Shown here: positions 1-35,182 of the stretch, one piece after another
How positions within the stretch are numbered: position 1 is the first letter of the stretch
How the letters are laid out: the number at the start of each line of letters is the position of its first letter
NCBI GenBank assembly: GCA_043814765.1
Contig: JBDRJQ010000037.1
Span: forward strand, 1-47,024
DNA length: 47,024 nucleotides
Source: Nanobdellota archaeon
GTDB taxonomy: Archaea > Aenigmatarchaeota > Aenigmatarchaeia > QMZP01
Direction: 5' to 3'
Notes under the pieces: model-generated
The model's input: only the letters and a program-made list of their open reading frames with translations
What the model was told of the DNA's origin: nothing
Database searches by the model: none
Made by a program: the position numbers and the translations under genes

Positions 1-945
<945 letters not shown>

Positions 946-1272
946 TAAGAAATTAGCGGTTTGTACTCCTATTATAAACTCTTTATGGGATATCACACGT
1001 CATGAAGTCCTACATCAAACTTAATACGCATGTTTTAAGCTATCACATAAACGAAACATTAATGTTCGTCAATCCTCCGTTAAAGATAGTTATTAACGCG
1101 CCGGGAACGAACCCAACTCATAACTATTAGTTATATAGTGTAGTAATTATATGCAGTATAGCTATTTAAAAGTATAGTGAAACAGTTTCAATTGATGCCT
1201 TTTGAGCATTTTTAAATTAAAGGATAGAATAATAAAAACATGACGACTTGAATAAAGTCGTTCAGCCAGTAT

Positions 1273-1414
1273 GGCCGGTGTGGTGTAGTGGTTAGCATAG
1301 GAGCTTGTGGTAGCCTTTTTACAAGAGGCTTACGCCTTCTGCAAAAAGCCCAGGGAAAAACGTGAAAAGGTTTGCAAAAAGCTCTTGACGCGAGTTCAAT
1401 TCTCGCCATCGGCC
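1273..1414 (+). tRNA. tRNA-His(GUG) with encoded G-1 and a 69-nt intron at 37/38 (1311-1379)
   Basis: Acceptor stem GCCGGTG/CATCGGC, C73, anticodon arm GGAGC-TTGTGG|A-GCTCT, T arm GCGAG-TTCAATT-CTCGC. BHB central helix TTGT/GCAA. Confidence 0.93.
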
Positions 1415-1416
1415 CT

Positions 1417-1650
1417 ATGAATACAAGGGATTTCAAAGTGAGGAATACTTTTCTCATTTCTTCAGTCGTAACTCTAACAACTTTCATCTTCTATTACCTA
1501 GGTAACCAGCTAATTGGATCAGCAACTGATGCTGTAAAAGCAATAACTGTCTCACTTCTAGTGGGAGTTTTCTATTTCATCGTACATCACTATCTGAATC
1601 GCTACTCAAAAAAAAGACACAATAATGTGGCTGTGAATGAATTCTTGTAA
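1417..1650 (+). CDS. Small two-TM membrane protein (77 aa)
   Basis: ATG lies 2 nt after tRNA-His; two hydrophobic stretches. The longer ORF-track start overlaps the tRNA and was discarded. Confidence 0.55.
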   Translation: MNTRDFKVRNTFLISSVVTLTTFIFYYLGNQLIGSATDAVKAITVSLLVGVFYFIVHHYLNRYSKKRHNNVAVNEFL

Positions 1651-1658
1651 ATAAAATA

Positions 1659-1857
1659 TGCGGGAGGCAGGATTCCCGTCACCCTTTGGGGTGCAGACCT
1701 TTTTTAAAGGGTTGCATTCGAACCTGCGAAAGCACTAAGCTACAGGATGTGTTATCACAGCCTTAAAGACTCAACACTTAAGACGAATGACCTTAAGTTT
1801 AGCATGATTTGACAATATCAAATCAACCTGCTCCTTTGGCCACTCGGAAACCCCCGC
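1659..1857 (-). tRNA. tRNA-Leu(UAA) with three introns: 30/31 (1799-1826), 37/38 (1749-1791), 59/60 (1673-1716)
   Basis: Removing the three segments gives an 84-nt class II cloverleaf: GCGGGGG/CTCCCGC-A, CAGGA-CTTAAGA-TCCTG, long variable arm, GCAGG-TTCGAAT-CCTGC. Each junction forms a BHB-like motif. Confidence 0.9.
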
Positions 1858-1919
1858 ATATAGAGATATTTGTTATGTTTATAATAAAAGTTTAAAAGAT
1901 AAATTTTAAAGGTGTTTTT

Positions 1920-2642
1920 GTGAAGAGTATGAGTGCTGAGCAGTTTGAGTTATTGGGAATACATATAGGAGATGGGTGTCTAAGTAAAACTAATAAATAT
2001 AAAGAATATGCTCTCCTAGGAGATATCACAGAAGAAAGGGAATATTATGAATCACATATAATACCAATGTTTAATAAAGTTGTCATGAAACCACTTTTAA
2101 ATAAAAAAGTTGTTGGTAAATCATATCCTTCTATGGGAGTATTTGGTTTCCTCATTTTTAATTCTAAAATATTTGAACATTATATAAATCTTGGAATCAA
2201 GTCAGGACCAAAAACAAGCATGAAATTGCCAAAATTAATAACAAATGCTAAACCTGATTTACAAAGGGCCTTTCTTAGAGGGCTTTTTGATACAGACGGT
2301 TCAATTTACTTTGATAAAAACTATTCAGCAAAACATAATGAGCATCGTAGACCTAGAATAAAATGGGCAACTACGTCGAAGATTCTTAAAAATTAAGTCA
2401 AGAAAATATGTGAAAATTTTGGTTTTAAAATAATGAATAGGTCTCCGTATAAAGGAAAACGCGATAAAAACACTTTACACGAACTTATTGTTTATAGAAA
2501 AAATGATGTAGATAGATGGATAAATGAAATAAGCTTTAACAACCCAAAACATAAAACAAAGATAGCTGTCTGGAAAAAATTGGGCTATTGTCCTCCTAAG
2601 ACAACTATATTAGAAAGAAAGAGCATTTTAAAAAGAATCTAA
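1920..2642 (+). pseudogene. Free-standing two-motif LAGLIDADG (DOD-type) endonuclease interrupted by one in-frame TAA at 2394-2396
   Basis: Motifs ELLGIHIGDG and FLRGLFDTDG. ORFs 1920-2396 and 2433-2642 share a frame and the intervening codons are open (KN*VKKICENFGFKIMN). C-terminal ISFNNPKH matches IGFINPKH of the second copy. Confidence 0.8.
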
Positions 2643-26434: not shown

Positions 26435-26548
26435 ATGAGAAAAGCCATTGCAAATATAATATCAAATTGGTTTATACTAGGAGCAATAGGGCTTCTTGTA
26501 TTTTTGTTAATAACTATCGTAATGATAACTCAAATATTCTACGGTTAG
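26435..26548 (+). CDS. Very small pilin-like peptide (37 aa, absent from the ORF track)
   Basis: MRKA-IANIISNWFILGAIGLLVFLLITIVMITQIFYG: basic leader + A + hydrophobic helix; first gene of the pilin array. Confidence 0.65.
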   Translation: MRKAIANIISNWFILGAIGLLVFLLITIVMITQIFYG

Positions 26549-26556
26549 TGATTTTT

Positions 26557-26739
26557 ATGAATAAAATAAAATATTTGCTCAAAAGAAAACGGAAAGGAGA
26601 TTCTACTCTCTTTGAAAATATGAATATAATTACAGCACTGATACTCGCTTTGATAGTTATAATTTTAATTATAGCATTCGTGTATACTATCTGGGCTCCT
26701 GGCATAGGAGAGGGCATTGGTAATATTTTTGGAGGTTAG
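26557..26739 (+). CDS. Class III signal peptide pilin-like protein (60 aa)
   Basis: KRKRKG|DSTLFE followed by a long hydrophobic helix. Confidence 0.75.
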   Translation: MNKIKYLLKRKRKGDSTLFENMNIITALILALIVIILIIAFVYTIWAPGIGEGIGNIFGG

Positions 26740-26742
26740 TTT

Positions 26743-26952
26743 ATGAAAAAAATAAAATCTTTTTTGAATAGAAAATTTTCTGGCATGGCACTACAGCAAA
26801 TGCTTTTGTTAGCCTTCACGATTATAATAGCTATTATAGCATTTTCTTTATGGCTAGGTTTTAGTGGAAATCTTGGTCCAGAAGTTAAAGAGGGTATTAC
26901 GACTTGGTACAACAGCATGTTTGGTGATTTTACCGGCACTATTTTTACATAA
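26743..26952 (+). CDS. Class III signal peptide pilin-like protein (69 aa)
   Basis: RKFSG|MALQQ + hydrophobic helix; GGAGGT Shine-Dalgarno. Confidence 0.75.
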   Translation: MKKIKSFLNRKFSGMALQQMLLLAFTIIIAIIAFSLWLGFSGNLGPEVKEGITTWYNSMFGDFTGTIFT

Positions 26953-26992
26953 TATTAATAGTTATTTAAGATGAGAGAAACAATTTAATATC

Positions 26993-27670
26993 ATGAAGGC
27001 ACAGTCAGATATATCTCCATGGGTTTTGTTCAGATTCCTTGTAGCAATTCTTGCTATTTTCAGCCTCATAATAATTATAGATTCTCTTGCCTTTTCGCTT
27101 CAGGGAGCTTCATGGACTCAGTTAAAGACAGAACTTGGTGACATAAGAGACAAATTTAGTTTTGGTAATGCGGCTACTCAAAAACCAGTAACAATAACCT
27201 CCATTGTTGCTAAAGTAGCTTTTGTTAACAGGGATGAGATATCATACATAATAGATGATGCTGATCTTAACAAAGAACTGAATTGCCCTGATGCTGATAT
27301 GTTTATAATAGCCTTTCCTTGCATAGAAGATTTTAGTCTTCCTGATATTGGGAATCCTGAAAAAGTTCAGGCTTATATAAAACAAACAGCTGGCGTTAAG
27401 AGGCCTCTCTGCTATGGCCTTCAGTTAAAAAAATGTCAGAACCAATATATAAACCAACCGCCTGTATGCACATCTTATTTTGTTTATGATACTGACAACA
27501 TACCTGAGATTAACGGTGACTGTGAAACCCGCTCACCAACAGAGGTAACAGTTACATTGAATCCTTTAGTCACAGATACTGGTGAAAAACAGTATCCTTA
27601 TTGCATTATTATGACTAGTGATGATGGTTCAGTAGATTACGATAGCTGTTCTGGTTACACAATGACATGA
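26993..27670 (+). CDS. Minor pilin-like protein with a Cys-rich globular domain
   Basis: MKA|QSDISPW + TM helix; 8 Cys. Confidence 0.72.
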   Translation: MKAQSDISPWVLFRFLVAILAIFSLIIIIDSLAFSLQGASWTQLKTELGDIRDKFSFGNAATQKPVTITSIVAKVAFVNRDEISYIIDDADLNKELNCPDADMFIIAFPCIEDFSLPDIGNPEKVQAYIKQTAGVKRPLCYGLQLKKCQNQYINQPPVCTSYFVYDTDNIPEINGDCETRSPTEVTVTLNPLVTDTGEKQYPYCIIMTSDDGSVDYDSCSGYTMT

Positions 27671-27681
27671 GGTGATTTTTT

Positions 27682-28131
27682 GTGGAAGCAATAAAACATA
27701 TTATAACTTTGGTGGCATTTTTAATGCTATTTATAATATCGCTTACTTTTATCTCTTCAATGATTTTAAAGAGTTTCGCTGTTCAGAGCGAACTAGAAAA
27801 ATCATTAATGGTATATACATTAAGTTCTACTGCAAACAGTTTAGCTGGTGTCGAGGAAGGTACTGTTTTTAACGAAGACTTAAAAAATGAATATGATATA
27901 AAGATTTTATGTTTTGGTAGAAGATGCAGTTTAAAAGTCAAAATTCCTGAAGAAAGTTGGACTACTAGAGCATTTGTAGGCGAACAAGAGTATGAAAGAG
28001 AATTAATGTTTTACACAAAATCTGCCTATTTCACTAATACAGATACTGTTTGTGTTGAAAAATCAGACGCTAGTACATATGTGTCAACAGACGATTACGC
28101 CATCAAAATATTGGAGAGGTGTTCAATATAA
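27682..28131 (+). CDS. Pilin-like membrane-anchored protein
   Basis: N-terminal hydrophobic helix; GAGGTGA Shine-Dalgarno before GTG. Confidence 0.68.
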   Translation: MEAIKHIITLVAFLMLFIISLTFISSMILKSFAVQSELEKSLMVYTLSSTANSLAGVEEGTVFNEDLKNEYDIKILCFGRRCSLKVKIPEESWTTRAFVGEQEYERELMFYTKSAYFTNTDTVCVEKSDASTYVSTDDYAIKILERCSI

Positions 28132-28146
28132 CGGAGGTAAATTACA

Positions 28147-28584
28147 ATGGATTTTGATGATGTAATGATAATAATTCTTCTAGCTGTGGTGCTTTTTGGA
28201 GTTGGCATTGGGATTCAAACCTTTTCTGAAAAAACACAAATGAATATACAGCTTGATATGAGACAAATGAGCTTGCTTGACAGCACAAGTATTCTCGAGG
28301 CTTGCCTCAAATCAGAAGATACGGATTATATTGATATAGAAACTCTGAGGAGTTTAGGATCAACCGCTACTGATTTTAGAGGATTTTGTGAAGGTACGGA
28401 AAGGAAGCAATTATATAATCTTCCTCAATTGGCTGGTGCTAAGGTTGTTGACCTTAAAACAAAAGAGGAATGGAAATCCATTGATTTTGACGAGCTACTT
28501 ACGCAAGAAAATACGCACACGGTTTTTGTTAACATAAATGACGATGAAACAGTTCATGTTGGAAAACTTTATGTCCAGATATAA
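28147..28584 (+). CDS. Pilin-like membrane-anchored protein
   Basis: N-terminal hydrophobic helix; GGAGGT Shine-Dalgarno; C-terminal GKLYVQI beta strand. Confidence 0.68.
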   Translation: MDFDDVMIIILLAVVLFGVGIGIQTFSEKTQMNIQLDMRQMSLLDSTSILEACLKSEDTDYIDIETLRSLGSTATDFRGFCEGTERKQLYNLPQLAGAKVVDLKTKEEWKSIDFDELLTQENTHTVFVNINDDETVHVGKLYVQI

Positions 28585-30316
28585 AAAGAGAAAGAAAGGC
28601 GTTGTGTTTCTCGCCTTTGGCATGACACATGTAGTTGTTATAGTAGTTTTGGTTATGATTCTTTTAGTAGCCTTTATATTTTTTCAGTTTTTAGCAGCAC
28701 GGAATATAGCTAACATAAGATCCAATATACAGTACACATTTACAGTAGACAAAGACGAAACATCTCTTGTATCACTTTTAGCAGCGACGTATCCAGACAA
28801 CAGGCAAATTAAATACGCAGAGTTTTTAGGATCTTTAGCAGCGAATCCATCTACGCGAAGCACGCCTGATTTCAATTCTATTCTAAGCGAAATGGGCATG
28901 GATGAATACTTGGCAATATCTGCAACACAAAGAGTTTCACAAGACTTAGCAGGTGGCAGCGGTCAGTCACATACTGTAGCAATTAATCAAATAGAAAACG
29001 TCTTGGTTATTGGTGATTCTATAACTTATCATGGAATTGATCAGCACTGTCAACCAATTGGTTCCTATACAGATGGTTATGTGGATTATCTTAATGCAAA
29101 CTCTGAAATAAATTTTAATGCAAGAGGATATATAGGATATCAAACACCTTCTATACAGTCATGTTTAAACAATAATGGACAAAGCTGTGATACAGGATCT
29201 TCTGAACTAGAACCAACTTTTAATATTGACGACTATGATACTGTAATCATATTAGCTGGCACGAATGATGTGGAAACCAGCAGAACAGCTTCAGATATAA
29301 TAGAAACCTTAAGTGAAATGTTTTCGGAAATGAAGCAACTGGATAAAAATGTTATTGCTGTTACAATTCCACCTAGAGATGGCTATAGTGATAAGATATT
29401 AGAAGTGAATCAATGGATAATGAGCGCCGAAGATACGGATTTGCGTGTAAATATTTATGATGATTTAGAATCTTCAGAAACGCCAGGAAGAATTGATGAA
29501 ACTCTCACCTCTGATGACACTTTTGTGCATCCAAATTGTGCTGGTCACAATATAATGGGACAGAAAATACTCTCAGCCATTGAAGGTACAGTATCAGCAA
29601 GCGGATTATCTTTCCAAGAATATAGTAAAATAAGTTTTCAAGACTTATCCATTTTTAGTGATATTGGAATGGAGATAGCATTACCTGGTGCAATAAAGGG
29701 AAGAACAAAATACTCAATAGGATTCGCAGATGTTCCATCGGCTACATACACTTCCGTAGCAAGAGACTTTATTATACCTTCTGATGAATTTGGAATGGCT
29801 TCTGTTGGATTGGAAACAGTTGGATCCGGTTACTGTAGACCTAGAGGAGAAGAAGGAAGCGCACGACAATATCATTATGGTTATGATTACTATGTTGCTG
29901 GAAATACACCTGTTATAGCTGTTTATTCTGGAAAAGTTGTTGCTTTAGTTTCAGATTGGGGAGGTAAAGGAAGTGCTGTTTGGATTAAAACCACACTTCC
30001 AAACAACGTTGACTTTACAGTTTCTTATGGACATATAAACATAGGTAGTGATATCACTTTCGGGAAAGAGATAAATCAAGGAGAGGAAATTGGAACAGTG
30101 TTTGATTATAGTACAGGATCAGGTTCTCATTTAGATGCAAAGATATTCTGGTGGCCTCTTGTGGGAGGAAATGAATGGTTCAAACAATCATTCGATATGG
30201 TCGATCCTAAAGAATGTTTTCACGACGAGTGTACCTTTATTGGAGCTGAACCTGAACCAGTTGATACACCTATATCAAATGAGTGTGTAACATCTATTGT
30301 TGAAACATCTAGATAA
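28571..30316 (+). CDS. Pilin-like protein carrying an SGNH/GDSL hydrolase domain and an M23 metallopeptidase domain
   Basis: KKRKKG|VVFL class III-like leader. SGNH blocks VIGDSIT, ILAGTND and DTFVHPN. M23 motifs HYGYD, TPVIAVYSGKV, YGHI, GEEIG, GSHLD. Confidence 0.85.
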   Translation: MSRYKKRKKGVVFLAFGMTHVVVIVVLVMILLVAFIFFQFLAARNIANIRSNIQYTFTVDKDETSLVSLLAATYPDNRQIKYAEFLGSLAANPSTRSTPDFNSILSEMGMDEYLAISATQRVSQDLAGGSGQSHTVAINQIENVLVIGDSITYHGIDQHCQPIGSYTDGYVDYLNANSEINFNARGYIGYQTPSIQSCLNNNGQSCDTGSSELEPTFNIDDYDTVIILAGTNDVETSRTASDIIETLSEMFSEMKQLDKNVIAVTIPPRDGYSDKILEVNQWIMSAEDTDLRVNIYDDLESSETPGRIDETLTSDDTFVHPNCAGHNIMGQKILSAIEGTVSASGLSFQEYSKISFQDLSIFSDIGMEIALPGAIKGRTKYSIGFADVPSATYTSVARDFIIPSDEFGMASVGLETVGSGYCRPRGEEGSARQYHYGYDYYVAGNTPVIAVYSGKVVALVSDWGGKGSAVWIKTTLPNNVDFTVSYGHINIGSDITFGKEINQGEEIGTVFDYSTGSGSHLDAKIFWWPLVGGNEWFKQSFDMVDPKECFHDECTFIGAEPEPVDTPISNECVTSIVETSR

Positions 30317-30330
30317 TTAAAAGTGTTAAT

Positions 30331-32226
30331 ATGAAAAGTAAAATGAAAAAAGGCATAACAAGTGTAAGTGCAATATTCTTCTTAGCCTTTATTATAGCGC
30401 TTATATTAGCTACTCTATCTGGTCTCTATGCGATGAATGTCCATTCAACAGCTGTAGAGGATCAAAGCAATATCCACTTCGATTTCTACAACTCAAAAAA
30501 TGCACTCAAAGCAGCTAAAACATATATGGAAAGCGCTCACTCCTTTTCTTTATATCAAGCAGTTTATGATAATTTCAGATTCGGTGGATACATGCCTGGA
30601 GAAGTGCCTAATTCTATTTCCAGTTCAGTCTCAGTTGATGATAAAGAATATGACATTAATTATGCTTTGTTTGGCACAGAAGATGATTTTCCTGCCTGGG
30701 AAGAAGTTATAGAAAATATAAAAACTTCCTTTAAGAATAATTTGAAAAAATACCTTGAAGACTATTATTTTTTAAACAGTTACATAGTTAGATTACCTTC
30801 CATAGACTCTTTTGATGTAAGCATTGAAGAAACTGTTAAAATAGAAGACGATAACTGTGGAGATGGAGTTGGGTGTGATCCTAATCCTGAAGTGGATGTT
30901 TTGAAACTTAAATCAACAACAACTAATGATAAGTTGGTGTTAAGCGGTACACATGAGTTGTATGGTCGAATGGAATTAAAAGAGAGCTTCTCTCTTGACA
31001 GAACATATAACATTAAAGCCAAGGGTCTTTATGAGAAAGCCAGAGAACATTTTGATACAGCAAAGCCAATGCTAACAGCTGCTAAAGATGCGGCATTGCA
31101 AGAGATAATTGATAACCCAGCTGTTTGGATACCAACAGGCAGCGGTTCTATAGACAGCATGCCAGAAGAGATATTTGCTAGTAATTTTGCTAATTTTGAT
31201 GAAAAGAAGGGTAATCTAATACAAAAACATTTTGGAGATTTCTTAAACAGTGAACCGATTGAAGAAGGGGATTACTTTATTGCCTATAATCTTGTAGTTG
31301 GTGACGTAGGTGTTGATCCGACTTGTGATAGCAGCTCTGGAACAAACATGTGTAATTTTGAATACTCAATTAACGCTGTAGTTAAGGTGGAGGTTTTTGA
31401 TAACTCGCAAACATTCCCTGTGGGTCATCATATCTTCATTGTAGAGCATCCTCTTTTCTTTAGGTTCTACTTAATGGAGGGCAATGTAGAATCAATACCA
31501 TCAGACGGTAGTGATGTAATTTCAACAAGCCTTGCAGCACCTATAACAGCACCAGATTTGGAATCATTATTTGAAACACTGGGAGCGGGTACAAAAATAT
31601 CTGTTACGCTTCCTAGTGGTAAGTATGTAACTGAAACTGTGGGAGAAGGGTTTTTAACGCCTGTTTTAACAGTAACAGAACAAAGCCTATTAGCAGCGAT
31701 GGAGCATGCAAAAACCACTTCTATATTAGGAAGAAATTGTCTTTGCGGAGATAATTGTGCTGATTATGCTAAATGGATTGTGCAGTACTCTGAAGAGATA
31801 GGCCTCAATACCTTAGGCGAAAATCCACCAGGACCATTGCTTGCACTTTCAATGATAATGCAAGAATCTAGCTGTAAAGAATTTAGCTGCAATCCTTGGG
31901 GATATGGCGGACTAATGCAAATAGATTGTAAGCCTCCTGGAGAAATTCCAAATTGGCAAAATCCAGAAACAAACATAAAAGAAGGGTTGCTGCATTTGAA
32001 GGGAAAATATGATCAGTTCAAAGACGGAAAACAGTTTACAGGAGCATGCAAAAACGATCCAAGATATATTGAACCGGTGGATAAATGGTATTACGGATGG
32101 CAGGCAGCTGTAAGAGGCTATATTGGATGGGGATGCAATGAAGATCTTCCACAACAAAATCTGTATGCAGAAGAAGTTTATCAAAGATATGATGAGCTGG
32201 CGAGCTATATTAGCTCTATAAGTTAA
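30331..32226 (+). CDS. Pilin-like protein with a C-terminal SLT lytic-transglycosylase (lysozyme-like) domain
   Basis: KMKKG|ITSV leader + TM helix. SLT motifs SMIMQESS (catalytic E), GGLMQI, NPETNIKEGLLHL, AAVRGY, YAEEV. Confidence 0.85.
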   Translation: MKSKMKKGITSVSAIFFLAFIIALILATLSGLYAMNVHSTAVEDQSNIHFDFYNSKNALKAAKTYMESAHSFSLYQAVYDNFRFGGYMPGEVPNSISSSVSVDDKEYDINYALFGTEDDFPAWEEVIENIKTSFKNNLKKYLEDYYFLNSYIVRLPSIDSFDVSIEETVKIEDDNCGDGVGCDPNPEVDVLKLKSTTTNDKLVLSGTHELYGRMELKESFSLDRTYNIKAKGLYEKAREHFDTAKPMLTAAKDAALQEIIDNPAVWIPTGSGSIDSMPEEIFASNFANFDEKKGNLIQKHFGDFLNSEPIEEGDYFIAYNLVVGDVGVDPTCDSSSGTNMCNFEYSINAVVKVEVFDNSQTFPVGHHIFIVEHPLFFRFYLMEGNVESIPSDGSDVISTSLAAPITAPDLESLFETLGAGTKISVTLPSGKYVTETVGEGFLTPVLTVTEQSLLAAMEHAKTTSILGRNCLCGDNCADYAKWIVQYSEEIGLNTLGENPPGPLLALSMIMQESSCKEFSCNPWGYGGLMQIDCKPPGEIPNWQNPETNIKEGLLHLKGKYDQFKDGKQFTGACKNDPRYIEPVDKWYYGWQAAVRGYIGWGCNEDLPQQNLYAEEVYQRYDELASYISSIS

Positions 32227-34540: not shown

Positions 34541-35182
34541 TTATGTACTTTTAAACTTTTCTTCATGTTTAGGGTTTATAAATCCTATTACATCTCTAAA
34601 CTTTATTAAATTGTTATAACCATTTGACTGTAATCTATAATTTACGTACTTCTCTTTCTTTTCACTAAAAGAATTTATTTTTATAGTTCTATAAACGTTA
34701 ACAGTCATTCCTTTACTTATTAAGAATTTTTTGATTTGTTCCAATATTATTTTAGAATTGTTTTGTATTTCTATTCTAGGATAAAGCGTACCATTATTAT
34801 TGGTTAGAACAAGCGAGCCATCCGTTGCAAAGAAACCAGAAATTATATGGTTCCAAACTTTTTTTGGAAAATGTTTACTTATTTTAATATTTTTCTTTTT
34901 TCCAATAGGAAATTCTAATGATACAAACTTATTAAAAAGTTCTTTATCACTAAAATTGATTTCTATTTTTCCAAAATCAGGCCTTTTTCTATATTTAACT
35001 TTTTTATTTCTAATTTTTGCCATTTTTGGCACAACAATTTGCTTAAAAAATGGTTCATCATCATGAATATTACATGTAACTACAATTCCTCTATATTTAC
35101 CAGATTTGGATATACATCCATCACCTGCTAAAATTCCATAAATTAAAGCAAAATCTTTATTTATATAATTTTTAATTTTCAT
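34541..35182 (-). CDS. Free-standing two-motif LAGLIDADG endonuclease
   Basis: LIYGILAGDG and IISGFFATDG, YPRIEI, IGFINPKH. Confidence 0.88.
   Translation of the reverse strand: MKIKNYINKDFALIYGILAGDGCISKSGKYRGIVVTCNIHDDEPFFKQIVVPKMAKIRNKKVKYRKRPDFGKIEINFSDKELFNKFVSLEFPIGKKKNIKISKHFPKKVWNHIISGFFATDGSLVLTNNNGTLYPRIEIQNNSKIILEQIKKFLISKGMTVNVYRTIKINSFSEKKEKYVNYRLQSNGYNNLIKFRDVIGFINPKHEEKFKST

What the first reader, a model, noticed from the sequence alone, without database searches (positions are those of the whole stretch)
26435..32226. Pilin-like operon ending in two large proteins with cell-wall hydrolase domains (SGNH esterase + M23 peptidase; lytic transglycosylase)
Seen: eight co-oriented, tightly spaced genes, each starting with a hydrophobic helix and most with a basic K/R-G/A class III-type leader. 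The last two carry intact catalytic motifs: SGNH (GDS, GTND, D-x3-H-P), M23 (HxxxD, YGH, with HLD in place of HxH) and SLT (QESS, GLMQI). Known: M23 enzymes cut peptidoglycan peptides, SLTs cut the glycan strands, O-acetylation of MurNAc blocks SLTs, and the de-O-acetylase Ape1 is an SGNH enzyme. Archaea have no murein, and peptidoglycan-hydrolase homologues have been reported in archaea including DPANN. Inference: a type IV pilus-like appendage displays a de-acetylate / cut-peptide / cut-glycan toolkit, letting a DPANN cell attach to, perforate or scavenge bacteria rather than (or as well as) an archaeal host.
Basis: partly seen in the sequence, partly recalled or inferred. Interest (0 to 1): 0.87.

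Follow-up and report, generated by a model that had tools for sequence, protein, structure and literature searches.

The report
Pilin-like operon carrying murein-cutting enzymes
A tiny symbiotic archaeon with no sign of a bacterial-type wall of its own carries a conserved set of pilus-subunit-like genes, and the last two proteins are fused to enzymes that cut bacterial cell walls, so it probably acts on bacteria.

Summary
Window 26435-32226 (+) has eight co-oriented ORFs, each with an N-terminal hydrophobic helix. The seventh carries SGNH and M23 domains; the eighth carries an SLT-type lytic transglycosylase domain.

It is one copy of a cassette conserved across the order. The O7 N-module occurs in 84 of 91 genomes. 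O3-O4-O5-O6-O7 keep one order in 37-41 of 41 loci, usually beside Alba and Pop5.

80% of cassette proteins (154/193) have a K/R-G/A leader just before the helix, against 15% (40/270) of other N-terminal-helix ORFs in this genome. The O5 model is a pilin-like "lollipop", though Foldseek matched no solved pilin. In 5 of 20 relatives a T2SSE ATPase lies upstream in the same cluster.

The enzyme modules move between carriers. SLT sits on O4, O5 or O7. M23, M15 or glucosaminidase sits on O6. Amidase_3, YkuD or SGNH sits on O7. Order-wide, 43 of 50 M23-bearing and 32 of 45 SLT-bearing genomes keep them at this cassette. No Mur ligase was found in this genome.

Best reading (0.55): a modular, minor-pilin-like complex presents murein hydrolases to bacteria. 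DPANN transglycosylases and archaeal antibacterial hydrolases are published; my searches did not find the pilin-cassette context.

The parts
26435..26548 (+). O0, 37-aa ORF: leader MRKA followed by a hydrophobic helix; candidate very short pilin-like subunit
   Evidence: Translation. Small co-oriented ORFs (30-95 aa) with the same leader type lie within 800 nt upstream of O3 in 28 of 36 loci.
26557..26739 (+). O1, 60-aa ORF (inner ATG of the 26467 ORF): leader ending RKG, hydrophobic helix, Gly-rich tail
   Evidence: No orthologue by jackhmmer among 41 loci, but similar small helix-plus-Gly-rich-tail ORFs were seen in relatives.
26743..26952 (+). O2, 69-aa small membrane protein; Ser-Gly rather than K/R-G before the helix
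   Evidence: No orthologue by jackhmmer.
26993..27670 (+). O3, 225 aa, first core cassette protein (leader MKA, helix, globular part)
   Evidence: Orthologues in 37 of 41 loci at a fixed position. Motif in 27 of 36 orthologues. No Pfam family.
27682..28131 (+). O4, 149 aa, core cassette protein, short (enzyme-free) form; leader is M-E-A here
   Evidence: Orthologues in 39 of 41 loci. By local jackhmmer, 12 of 41 loci have a long O4 form (about 300-415 aa) carrying SLT. Pfam SLT matches 13 of the 20 long O4/O5 forms scanned.
28147..28584 (+). O5, 145 aa, core cassette protein with a predicted pilin-like lollipop fold; no G/A leader in this genome
   Evidence: Orthologues in 39 of 41 loci. AlphaFold2 on 25 sequences: pLDDT 89.8, helix 3-54, strands 97-102, 108-111, 123-131, 136-144. 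Foldseek against PDB gave no hit below E 0.1.
28538..30316 (+). O6, 592 aa (likely start 28571, 581 aa): KKG leader, helix, conserved N-domain, SGNH, conserved 'LPG' strand, M23
   Evidence: An O6-family protein is present in 41 of 41 loci; the leader motif is in 38 of 41.
29006..29551 (+). SGNH/GDSL esterase domain of O6 (aa 157-338), sitting at the site where most relatives carry M23
   Evidence: Pfam PF13472 E 2e-12. GDS, GTND and HP blocks present. Homologous to the SGNH domain on O7-like proteins of two relatives, E 4e-12 and 4e-6. Profile against PDB: 3p94 at E 3.6e-15 and a sialate O-acetylesterase, 6njc.
29678..29701 (+). Conserved 'A-L-P-G-A-I-K-G' strand of the O6 family (aa 381-388)
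   Evidence: An [LMIV]PG motif lies within the last 45 residues in 27 of the 40 relatives' O6 proteins; five more have a close variant there, such as PAPG, FPG, LPN or LPC. Here it precedes the M23 domain.
29870..30145 (+). Peptidase M23 domain of O6 (aa 445-536); HxxxD intact, HxH replaced by H-L-D
   Evidence: Pfam PF01551 E 4.4e-11. Six-frame match at 29870-30145. Aligns to LytM across the HxxxD motif. H-L-D is also seen in two orthologues.
30331..31500 (+). O7 N-module (aa 1-390): KKG leader, 72-residue helix, beta-rich body; the most conserved carrier protein of the cassette
   Evidence: Profile A4 matches 84 of 91 genomes of the order, and 23 of 23 high-quality ones. AlphaFold2: helix 12-83, good confidence for 230-390. 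No PDB fold match.
31672..32214 (+). SLT-type lytic transglycosylase domain of O7 (aa 448-628), a Cys-rich variant; Glu512 in the Q-E-S motif

Best explanation
The eight genes are one copy of a chromosomal cassette conserved across an order of DPANN archaea. It encodes type IV pilin-like proteins with class III signal peptides. One to three very short subunits come first, then five core proteins, O3-O7.

Inferred mechanism. The prepilin peptidase cuts after the K/R-G/A leader, and the N-terminal helices assemble the proteins into a minor-pilin-like tip complex or short pseudopilus. O6 and O7 act as carriers onto which peptidoglycan hydrolase modules have been grafted. In this genome the payload is an SGNH esterase and an M23 endopeptidase on O6 and an SLT lytic transglycosylase on O7. 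The complex would therefore hold a peptide-cutting and a glycan-cutting enzyme against a bacterial wall and digest it locally, for attachment, penetration or feeding. The producer shows no sign of making murein itself.

Shown here: gene order and conservation, domain identities, leader-motif enrichment, the pilin-like shape of O5, linkage to an assembly ATPase in some relatives, and hopping of murein-specific modules between carriers.

Inferred only: leader cleavage, filament assembly, enzyme activity, and a bacterial target.
For: (1) Conservation. The O7 N-module is in 84 of 91 genomes of the order, and in 23 of 23 high-quality ones. O3, O4 and O5 are in 37, 39 and 39 of 41 loci, and O6 and O7 in 41 of 41, always in the same order. 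Housekeeping genes flank the cassette.

(2) Leaders. [KR][GA] lies within 12 residues before the first helix in 154 of 193 cassette proteins, against 40 of 270 other N-terminal-helix ORFs of this genome. It is near-invariant in the O7 alignment, where K7 is followed by G or A.

(3) Fold. The O5 model (pLDDT 89.8) has a 52-residue helix and a 4-stranded sheet. The O7 model has a 72-residue N-terminal helix.

(4) Machinery. The genome has a Peptidase_A24 match, four T2SSE matches over the cut-off and four T2SSF matches. An orthologue of the ATPase at own-genome C29:96437-98701 lies upstream on the same strand, 9.6-14 kb from O7 in the three cases measured, in 5 of 20 relatives with upstream sequence. 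A weakly TadC-like protein lies between them in two of those.

(5) Payload. Among 17 O6-position proteins of 230 aa or more: M23 14, glucosaminidase 1, M15_4 1, SGNH 1. Among 14 long O7 orthologues: SLT 6, Amidase_3 2, SGNH 2, YkuD 1. Among 20 long O4/O5 orthologues: SLT 13. Among 17 database relatives of the O7 N-module: SLT 6, glucosaminidase 1.

(6) Order-wide. M23 is in 50 of 91 genomes, and in 43 of those 50 it lies within 2.5 kb of the O7 gene. SLT is in 45 of 91, and in 32 of those 45 it lies within 4 kb. Both are present in 36 genomes.

(7) This genome has one M23 match, one SLT match and no Mur_ligase_M match.

(8) Among the small carriers (500 aa or less) of this SLT variant, 57 have an N-terminal helix, and 46 of those 57 also have the leader motif.
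Against: - Foldseek found no solved pilin, or anything below E 0.1, for O5 or O7.
- No Pfam pilin or class-III model hit any of the seven proteins scanned at E up to 1.
- O2, O4 and O5 of this window lack the K/R-G/A leader.
- In this genome no ATPase or platform gene is adjacent. The orthologous ATPase is on another contig.
- 18 of 41 cassettes carry no hydrolase I could detect, so the core function of the cassette is something other than wall digestion.
- The M23 domain has H-L-D instead of HxH. The SLT domain is under Pfam's cut-off when scored alone. The SGNH Asp is 4-5 residues before the His, not 3.
- Neither protein has a recognised peptidoglycan-binding domain.
- 32 of 91 genomes of the order have one Mur-ligase-family gene each.
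- The genomes compared are relatives, so the counts are not independent events.
Confidence: 0.55

Rival explanations
1. The proteins are made and may be processed as class-III-leader proteins, but they stay as individual membrane-anchored ectoenzymes or a loose surface assembly. This would resemble the class-III-leader sugar-binding proteins of Sulfolobus (recalled). There is no pilus or pseudopilus. The hydrolases work at the archaeon's own surface on whatever murein touches it.
For: No fold match to solved pilins. No Pfam pilin family. No assembly genes next to the cassette in this genome or in any of the 9 relatives of its own family with upstream sequence. Three window proteins lack the leader.
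Against: Five carriers in a fixed order resemble a minor-pilin set. O5 has the helix-plus-sheet shape. The ATPase is linked to the cassette in 5 of 20 relatives. Small helix-only ORFs with the leader lie upstream in 28 of 36 loci.
Confidence: 0.25
2. The hydrolases are not used on a host. They are used to lyse competing bacteria, or to scavenge amino sugars and peptides from dead bacterial wall material. The pilin-like part serves only as an export or anchoring device.
For: An archaeal M23 and an archaeal glucosaminidase protein that kill a bacterium are published (PMC12352652, passages read). M23 and SLT are patchy in the order, with neither found in 32 of 91 genomes, as expected of weapons or accessory feeding genes.
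Against: The genome is about 0.86 Mb at 88% completeness, typical of obligate symbionts. The enzymes are tethered to carriers rather than freely secreted. They sit in a vertically conserved core locus rather than on mobile DNA.
Confidence: 0.12
3. The enzymes act on the producer's own wall, or on the pseudomurein of a methanogen host. This would parallel the way bacterial secretion systems and flagella carry dedicated transglycosylases to pass their own murein.
For: SLT and glucosaminidase modules tied to filament machines are classical in bacteria; EtgA and EmtA appear among the PDB hits. 32 of 91 genomes of the order have one Mur-ligase-family gene.
Against: No Mur_ligase_M match in this genome or its congener. 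No genome of the order has more than one, and the control archaea that (from recall) lack murein, M. jannaschii and H. volcanii, also score. From general knowledge (recalled), Amidase_3, YkuD, M15_4 and M23 act on bonds of bacterial murein that pseudomurein lacks.
Confidence: 0.05

Closest known systems
Modular type IV pilins of bacteria (Streptococcus sanguinis PilB and PilC; bioRxiv 10.1101/2021.01.27.428410, passages read)
   Same: A short leader ending in Gly, a hydrophobic N-terminal helix and a small carrier module, with an unrelated functional module grafted on. These are thought to sit at the filament tip. That paper notes predicted peptidase modules (S74, M26) among 264 architectures.
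   Different: Those are bacterial, are defined by the IPR012902 N-methylation motif, and the characterised modules are adhesins. Here the carriers are archaeal and match no pilin family model. Several carriers in one cassette bear modules, and the modules are peptidoglycan hydrolases.
[quoted passage not shown]
   Same: The same kind of SLT domain in DPANN archaea, and the same inference that it binds or degrades bacterial walls. 27 of the 132 listed C-domain hits are proteins over 1500 aa, which fits that description.
   Different: Those are proteins of up to 3000 aa, and the passages I read describe no pilin context. Here the domain is on a 631-aa pilin-like carrier inside a conserved five-carrier cassette together with M23. 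I could not confirm that fam00969 is the same family, because supplements are closed.
Archaeal peptidoglycan hydrolases that kill bacteria (Halogranum salarium Woldo and Danwoldo; PMC12352652, passages read)
   Same: Archaeal M23 and glucosaminidase enzymes aimed at bacterial murein. That paper also reports M23 homologues in four Nanoarchaeia genomes.
   Different: Those are Tat- or Sec-secreted soluble proteins with PG_binding_1 domains. Here there is no binding domain, the leader is class-III-like, and the proteins are tethered in a cassette. The words 'pilin' and 'type IV' do not occur in that paper's main text.
Minor-pilin tip complexes (T2SS GspH-I-J-K; T4aP FimU-PilVWX with PilY1); recalled, and mentioned in the passages
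   Same: Four to five small pilin-like proteins encoded together. The largest (GspK-like) carries an extra domain and caps the filament.
   Different: No sequence or fold match was obtained here. The complex prediction gave no verdict. The payloads are enzymes.
Wall-piercing lysins on phage tails, and specialised transglycosylases of bacterial secretion and flagellar machines (VirB1, EtgA, FlgJ); a tape-measure protein and EtgA appear as PDB hits, the rest is recalled
   Same: It works alike: an SLT, M23 or glucosaminidase module fixed to the end of a filament or tube digests murein only where the structure touches it.
   Different: Unrelated carriers. The bacterial machines cut the producer's own wall, whereas here the producer appears to have none.

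Membership tests
Type IV pilin / type IV filament subunit | Class III signal peptide: a short basic leader ending in G or A, directly followed by about 20 hydrophobic residues | tested here: met
   Window: 5 of 8 ORFs (O0, O1, O3, O6, O7); O2, O4 and O5 fail. Orthologues: 154 of 193, against 40 of 270 control ORFs. I used my own simple motif, not FlaFind or PilFind.
Type IV pilin / type IV filament subunit | Lollipop fold: an N-terminal helix of about 50 residues and a beta-sheet head, similar to solved pilins | tested here: inconclusive
   The O5 model has helix 3-54 and four strands, pLDDT 89.8. The O7 model has helix 12-83. Foldseek against PDB gave no hit below E 0.1 for either. The Atlas gave only a below-the-bar TadE-cluster lead for O7 residues 21-232.
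Type IV pilin / type IV filament subunit | Match to a curated pilin or class-III family model | tested here: not met
   No pilin or class-III family among the Pfam or NCBIfam hits for seven proteins at E up to 1, nor for 25 O5 and 10 O7 orthologues at E up to 0.1, apart from one T4SS_pilin hit at E 0.019.
Type IV pilin / type IV filament subunit | Prepilin peptidase, assembly ATPase and platform protein in the genome, genetically linked to the subunits | tested here: inconclusive
   Present in the genome: A24 at 27.5 bits (cut-off 26.5), T2SSE x4 over the cut-off, T2SSF x4. None is adjacent in this window. An orthologous ATPase is linked in 5 of 20 relatives.
Type IV pilin / type IV filament subunit | Leader cleavage and polymerisation into a filament | not testable with these tools
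   Needs biochemistry or imaging.
Peptidase M23 (lysostaphin/LytM type) | Family model match over the curated cut-off | tested here: met
   PF01551, 43.3 bits against 28.7; 44.6 bits in the six-frame search.
Peptidase M23 (lysostaphin/LytM type) | Metal and catalytic residues HxxxD, a middle His, and HxH | tested here: inconclusive
   H446xxxD450 and H499 are present. The last motif is H531-L-D533, not HxH. The same H-L-D occurs in 2 of the 13 relatives' M23 domains aligned, while most others show HLH. Asp could bind zinc (inference); activity is untested.
SGNH/GDSL hydrolase | Family model match, and blocks I (GDS), III (GxND) and V (DxxH) | tested here: met
   PF13472, 48.4 bits against 32.9. 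GDS 159-161, GTND 241-244 and H331-P332 are present. The Asp lies 4-5 residues before the His instead of 3.
Ape1-type peptidoglycan O-acetylesterase | Specific sequence kinship to Ape1 beyond the shared SGNH fold | tested here: not met
   A profile of three cassette SGNH domains hit 20 PDB sequences at E up to 0.1. All are named as SGNH/GDSL esterases, lipases, acylhydrolases or a hypothetical protein, plus two designed proteins, and one is a sialate O-acetylesterase. None is named as a peptidoglycan esterase. A de-O-acetylase role remains a guess.
SLT (family 1 lytic transglycosylase, GH23) | Family model match over the curated cut-off | tested here: inconclusive
   Alone: 17.5 bits against 21.3. 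22.1 bits with neighbouring stretches. 27 of 27 homologues of the domain match PF01464 at E up to 0.01, best 3.7e-15.
SLT (family 1 lytic transglycosylase, GH23) | Catalytic Glu in the E-S motif, followed by the GLMQ motif | tested here: met
   Q-E512-S and GLMQ 527-530. Q and E are invariant in 27 homologues. The family profile aligns these onto the I-E-S-S and GLMQ stretches of MltC.

The most novel reading that the evidence does not exclude
A vertically inherited type IV filament tip complex, present in nearly every genome of a DPANN order, works in about half of the species as a murein drill. Five pilin-like carriers exchange SLT, M23, M15, amidase, glucosaminidase, YkuD and SGNH modules among themselves. 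If so, a large share of this archaeal order attaches to, feeds on or preys on bacteria rather than archaea, which would be cross-domain episymbiosis. The armed or naked state of the cassette would then predict host type from sequence alone.
Probability: 0.35. Interest if true: 0.85.

Novelty: new variant of a known kind. Interest (0 to 1): 0.72.

Why it matters
The hosts of most Woesearchaeota-like DPANN archaea are unknown. So far the idea that some live on bacteria rests on scattered transglycosylase genes (passages in PMC8204110).

This finding places the murein hydrolases inside a conserved, pilin-like surface apparatus. It also shows that selection keeps a glycan cutter and a peptide cutter there while the modules move between carriers.

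That turns a loose hint into specific tests:
- defined proteins to express and assay;
- a defined leader to test for cleavage;
- a genomic marker (armed or naked cassette) to compare with host identity in co-sorting or proximity-ligation data.

It would also extend the modular-pilin idea from bacteria to archaea, and from adhesins to enzymes.

Tried and rejected
Word-indexed protein searches. O6 and O7 returned only themselves. The SGNH part searched against shorter proteins returned nothing. These searches are limited by word matching, so I used the exhaustive search and six-frame genome searches instead.

Fold searches. Foldseek against PDB gave nothing below E 0.1 for the O7 model or the O5 model, so I claim no fold-level membership in pilins. 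The O7 C-domain was modelled poorly (pLDDT under 50) because alignment A1 held only six SLT-bearing rows there, of the canonical type, and none of O7's own SLT variant. The lysozyme fold was therefore not checked by structure, only by sequence profile.

Complex prediction of O5 + O6(50-425) + O7(34-390): no verdict, score 0.00.

Sequencing runs: none was listed, and no RNA holder was listed.

Atlas leads to DUF7286, DUF7287 and DUF7288 were tested and not confirmed:
- 1 of 25 O5 orthologues hit DUF7285, at E 0.026;
- none of 10 O7 orthologues hit any of these families;
- in this genome DUF7287 matches another place, below its cut-off, and DUF7286 matches nothing.

Naming the organism. The search for related loci with O7 found no relative. 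With the neighbouring aminoacyl-tRNA synthetase it gave only loosely named records. I therefore call the lineage DPANN (Nanobdellota/Woesearchaeota-like), only from the taxa of related Atlas clusters.

Rejected ideas:
- Contamination or a mobile element: archaeal housekeeping genes flank the cassette on both sides here and in relatives.
- Remodelling of the producer's own wall: see rivals.

Limits on what I could see:
- Supplements are closed. Supplementary Table 3 of PMC8204110 (the 51 families of its Module 98) and S2 Table of PMC12352652 may already list these cassette families or proteins, and I could not check.
- The claim that the pilin-cassette context is not in print rests on searches, and on term counts. 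It covers only the held library.

Sampling. The 40 relatives' loci were picked by me from the 83 relatives with a match, for score, contig length and spread over families. They are not a random sample. My ORF calling in scripts is crude (first start codon, greedy overlap removal).

Full report
What is in the window. Between 26435 and 32226 the + strand holds eight tightly packed ORFs: O0 (37 aa), O1 (60 aa from the inner ATG at 26557), O2 (69 aa), O3 (225 aa), O4 (149 aa), O5 (145 aa), O6 (592 aa, or 581 aa from the start used by the database's gene call) and O7 (631 aa). Each begins with a hydrophobic helix. Five have a basic leader ending in G or A right before it (O0 RKA, O1 RKG, O3 KA, O6 KKG, O7 KKG); O2, O4 and O5 do not. 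The flanks are archaeal housekeeping genes: a Fe-ADH_2 family dehydrogenase (probably glycerol-1-phosphate dehydrogenase, by my reading), a UbiA prenyltransferase and a weak prenyltransferase match (26 bits, just under its cut-off of 27) upstream, and Alba, an RNase P Pop5 subunit and an aminoacyl-tRNA synthetase downstream. The genome is 859 kb in 39 contigs, 88% complete. Related protein clusters in the ESM Atlas are mostly Nanobdellota or Candidatus Woesearchaeota. That is my only basis for calling it DPANN.

The enzyme domains. O6 matches Lipase_GDSL_2 (aa 157-338, 48.4 bits, cut-off 32.9) and Peptidase_M23 (aa 445-536, 43.3 bits, cut-off 28.7).
- GDS 159-161, GTND 241-244 and H331-P332. 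The Asp lies 4-5 residues upstream of the His rather than 3.
- H446xxxD450, H499, and H531-L-D533 in place of HxH.
The M23 part aligns with LytM across HxxxD.

O7's SLT match is below Pfam's cut-off on its own (17.5 against 21.3 bits), so I tested it further. The exhaustive search of 1.84 billion representatives gave 203 hits at E up to 0.001. Of the 149 non-self rows listed, 132 hit the C-terminal 180 residues. In an alignment of 27 short homologues, all 27 match Pfam SLT. The Q-E motif is invariant, and the S that follows it and GLMQ are invariant or nearly so. The family profile finds MltC (E 5e-11), EmtA and Slt70, with the catalytic E-S aligned. I accept it as a Cys-rich SLT variant.

A conserved cassette, not a one-off. 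With the whole proteins as queries, O6 matched only 5 of 41 related genomes and O7 matched 31 of 41, almost always through its first 80-390 residues. A profile of that N-module (A4) matches 84 of 91 genomes of the order, and 23 of 23 that are at least 90% complete. I fetched 40 relatives' loci (my own choice from the 83 relatives with a match). Iterative searches place O3, O4 and O5 orthologues in 37, 39 and 39 of 41 loci, and O6 and O7 in all 41, always in the order O3-O4-O5-O6-O7. In the loci I inspected, Alba, Pop5 and often GatA lie downstream. Small co-oriented helix-only ORFs with the same leader type lie just upstream of O3 in 28 of 36 loci. None of the five core families has a Pfam or NCBIfam name.

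Are they pilin-like? Evidence for:
- [KR][GA] lies within 12 residues before the first helix in 154 of 193 cassette proteins with an N-terminal helix (O6 38/41, O7 38/41, O3 27/36, O4 24/37 of those with a helix, O5 27/38). In the other N-terminal-helix ORFs of this genome it occurs in 40 of 270, a control set that itself contains other pilin clusters.
- The residue after the cut site is most often Gln (29 of 154). From recall, this is typical of EppA-type archaeal pilins.
- In the O7 alignment the Lys is near-invariant and is followed by G or A.
- AlphaFold2 on 25 O5 orthologues gives a confident model (pLDDT 89.8) with a helix at residues 3-54 and four strands. That is the classical lollipop layout.
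- The O7 model has a helix at 12-83 and a beta-rich body, confident for residues 230-390.

Evidence against:
- Foldseek found nothing below E 0.1 in the PDB for either model.
- No pilin family model hits.
- The Atlas offered only a sub-threshold TadE-cluster resemblance.

I therefore say "works like" a set of minor pilins, and I leave membership open.

Link to assembly machinery. The genome has one Peptidase_A24 match (27.5 bits, just over the cut-off), four T2SSE matches over the cut-off and four T2SSF matches, none of them in this window. I extended 20 relatives' loci upstream. An orthologue of the ATPase at own-genome C29:96437-98701 lies on the same strand upstream of O7 in 5 of the 20: one genome of family f3 and four of five tested in f6. 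It was found in none of 9 in the window's own family f1, none of 4 in f2 and not in the single f4 genome. In three of the five I worked out its start-to-start distance from O7 as 9.6, 10.6 and 14 kb; in a fourth, G038, the whole run from the ATPase to the start of O7 spans 11.5 kb. In two of the five (G026 and G038) the order is ATPase, a polytopic protein weakly similar to this genome's T2SSF proteins (phmmer E 1e-7 to 1e-9 in a small local database; no Pfam hit), a 900-1000-aa N-terminally anchored protein, small pilin-like ORFs, then O3-O7. The large protein flanks the cassette in at least 17 loci, and its homologue here is at C29:42102-45257. In this genome the parts of the locus are scattered.

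The payload moves.
- Pfam tallies for O6-position proteins of 230 aa or more (17, including the window): M23 14, glucosaminidase 1, M15_4 1, SGNH 1 (the window only), and one with none.
- The 14 O7 orthologues of 420 aa or more among the 40 relatives: SLT 6, Amidase_3 2, SGNH 2, YkuD 1, PKD 1. Four have no Pfam match at E up to 0.01 and one only weak fn3-type hits. One 1203-aa O7 orthologue carries PKD, YkuD and Amidase_3 together.
- The 20 long O4/O5 orthologues: SLT 13.
- The 17 database relatives of the O7 N-module: canonical SLT 6, glucosaminidase 1, fn3 1.
- By local profile searches, SLT sits on O4 in 12 loci, on O5 in 1 and on O7 in 7; M23 sits on O6 in 19 of 41.
- In all, 23 of 41 cassettes are armed and 18 show no hydrolase.
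- The window's SGNH domain is homologous to the SGNH on the O7 orthologues of two relatives in other families (E 4e-12 and 4e-6).
- The O6 family has a conserved LPG-type strand about 15 residues from its C-terminus. In most armed forms M23 is inserted before that strand. In the window SGNH occupies that site and M23 is appended after the strand.

Order-wide counts that do not depend on my choice of loci. M23 is in 50 of 91 genomes and SLT in 45 of 91; both are in 36, M23 only in 14, SLT only in 9, and neither in 32. In 43 of the 50 M23-bearing genomes an M23 match lies within 2.5 kb of the O7-family gene. In 32 of the 45 SLT-bearing genomes an SLT match lies within 4 kb; short contigs limit this count. 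The cassette is thus the main home of both enzyme types in this order. These genomes are relatives, so the counts are not independent events.

No sign of a wall of its own to cut. This genome has exactly one M23 match and one SLT match, both in this operon, and no Mur_ligase_M match; it is 88% complete. Across the order, 32 of 91 genomes have a single Mur-ligase-family gene and none has two or more. None is in the window's genus. Archaeal control genomes also score: M. jannaschii and H. volcanii, and M. acetivorans as well.

Most likely mechanism (inferred). The proteins are inserted with the helix in the membrane, trimmed by the A24 peptidase, and assembled through their helices into a tip complex or short pseudopilus, possibly driven by the C29-type ATPase. 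O6 and O7 hold the enzymes outward. On contact with a bacterium, M23 would cut peptide cross-links and SLT the glycan strands. The SGNH domain may remove O-acetyl groups that block transglycosylases, but its nearest solved relatives are generic SGNH esterases and a sialate O-acetylesterase, not Ape1, so this step is a guess. The H-L-D variant of M23 recurs in two orthologues, which argues against decay, but its activity is untested. Neither protein has a recognised murein-binding domain; the carrier complex may supply the targeting.

What is known and what is new. Three things are in print:
- Large murein-like transglycosylase proteins in Pacearchaeota and Woesearchaeota, with the suggestion of bacterial hosts (PMC8204110, passages; PMC10936187, passages).
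- Experimentally shown antibacterial M23 and glucosaminidase enzymes from a haloarchaeon, with M23 homologues noted in four Nanoarchaeia genomes (PMC12352652, passages; its main text has no occurrence of 'pilin' or 'type IV').
- Modular type IV pilins in bacteria, including predicted peptidase modules (bioRxiv 10.1101/2021.01.27.428410, passages).

My searches found no paper that places DPANN murein hydrolases on class-III-leader carriers in a conserved cassette or describes the module hopping. I rate it a new variant of known kinds.

Caveats. There is no expression, cleavage, assembly or activity data. There is no fold-level or model-level proof of pilin membership. Gene calls in relatives were made crudely. 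The loci were chosen, not sampled at random. All genomes are metagenome-type assemblies of relatives.

Noticed in passing
own genome C29:42102-45257 (- strand); relatives' loci such as L058:2925-5834 and L076:672-3713: A 900-1050-aa N-terminally anchored protein with no Pfam family lies just upstream of the cassette in at least 17 relatives. In this genome it sits on another contig, away from both the cassette and the ATPase.
   Followed up: partly
own genome C27:7965-12361, C28:25606-31933, C8:9864-11061, C9:6414-7092, C29:27480-28448: Several other clusters of ORFs with class-III-like leaders. Two lie next to T2SSF (three copies on C27) or T2SSE (C28) genes, so the genome seems to hold more than one type IV filament system.
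   Followed up: no
G009:C24:160633-161595 (locus L012): One relative without an O7-family match has a 1520-aa open frame that holds both an M23 and an SLT domain side by side, a different way of pairing the same two activities.
   Followed up: no
L082 (G088:C2), about 1.6-2.6 kb upstream of its O7 gene: The O4 position is broken into several short ORFs (59-81 aa), some carrying SLT fragments. This may be a decaying armed O4 or an assembly error.
   Followed up: no
alignment A8 (O5 family), first 25 columns after the leader: Many O5 orthologues read G-D-Y-E right after the leader, a conserved acidic and aromatic start of the mature protein. In the window's genus the leader itself is reduced to one or two residues.
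   Followed up: no
window 34541-35182 (- strand): A 213-aa ORF with two LAGLIDADG-like motifs (my reading of the translation; not scanned), possibly a free-standing homing endonuclease.
   Followed up: no
window 1-2000: G+C is 0.436 against 0.33-0.39 in the rest of the window. Possibly a structural RNA gene; not checked.
   Followed up: no
own genome C20:44174-44344 (locus L102): A sub-threshold match (19.4 bits, E 6e-4) to DUF7287, the family the Atlas suggested for O5, lies in a different 232-aa ORF elsewhere in the genome.
   Followed up: no
one search hit list, proteins P0020-P0023 and others of 1950-2960 aa: 27 of the 132 listed carriers of the O7-type SLT domain are giant proteins, with the domain around residues 1700-2300 of the protein. 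26 have an N-terminal helix but only 3 have the leader motif, so the same domain is used in two very different kinds of carrier.
   Followed up: partly
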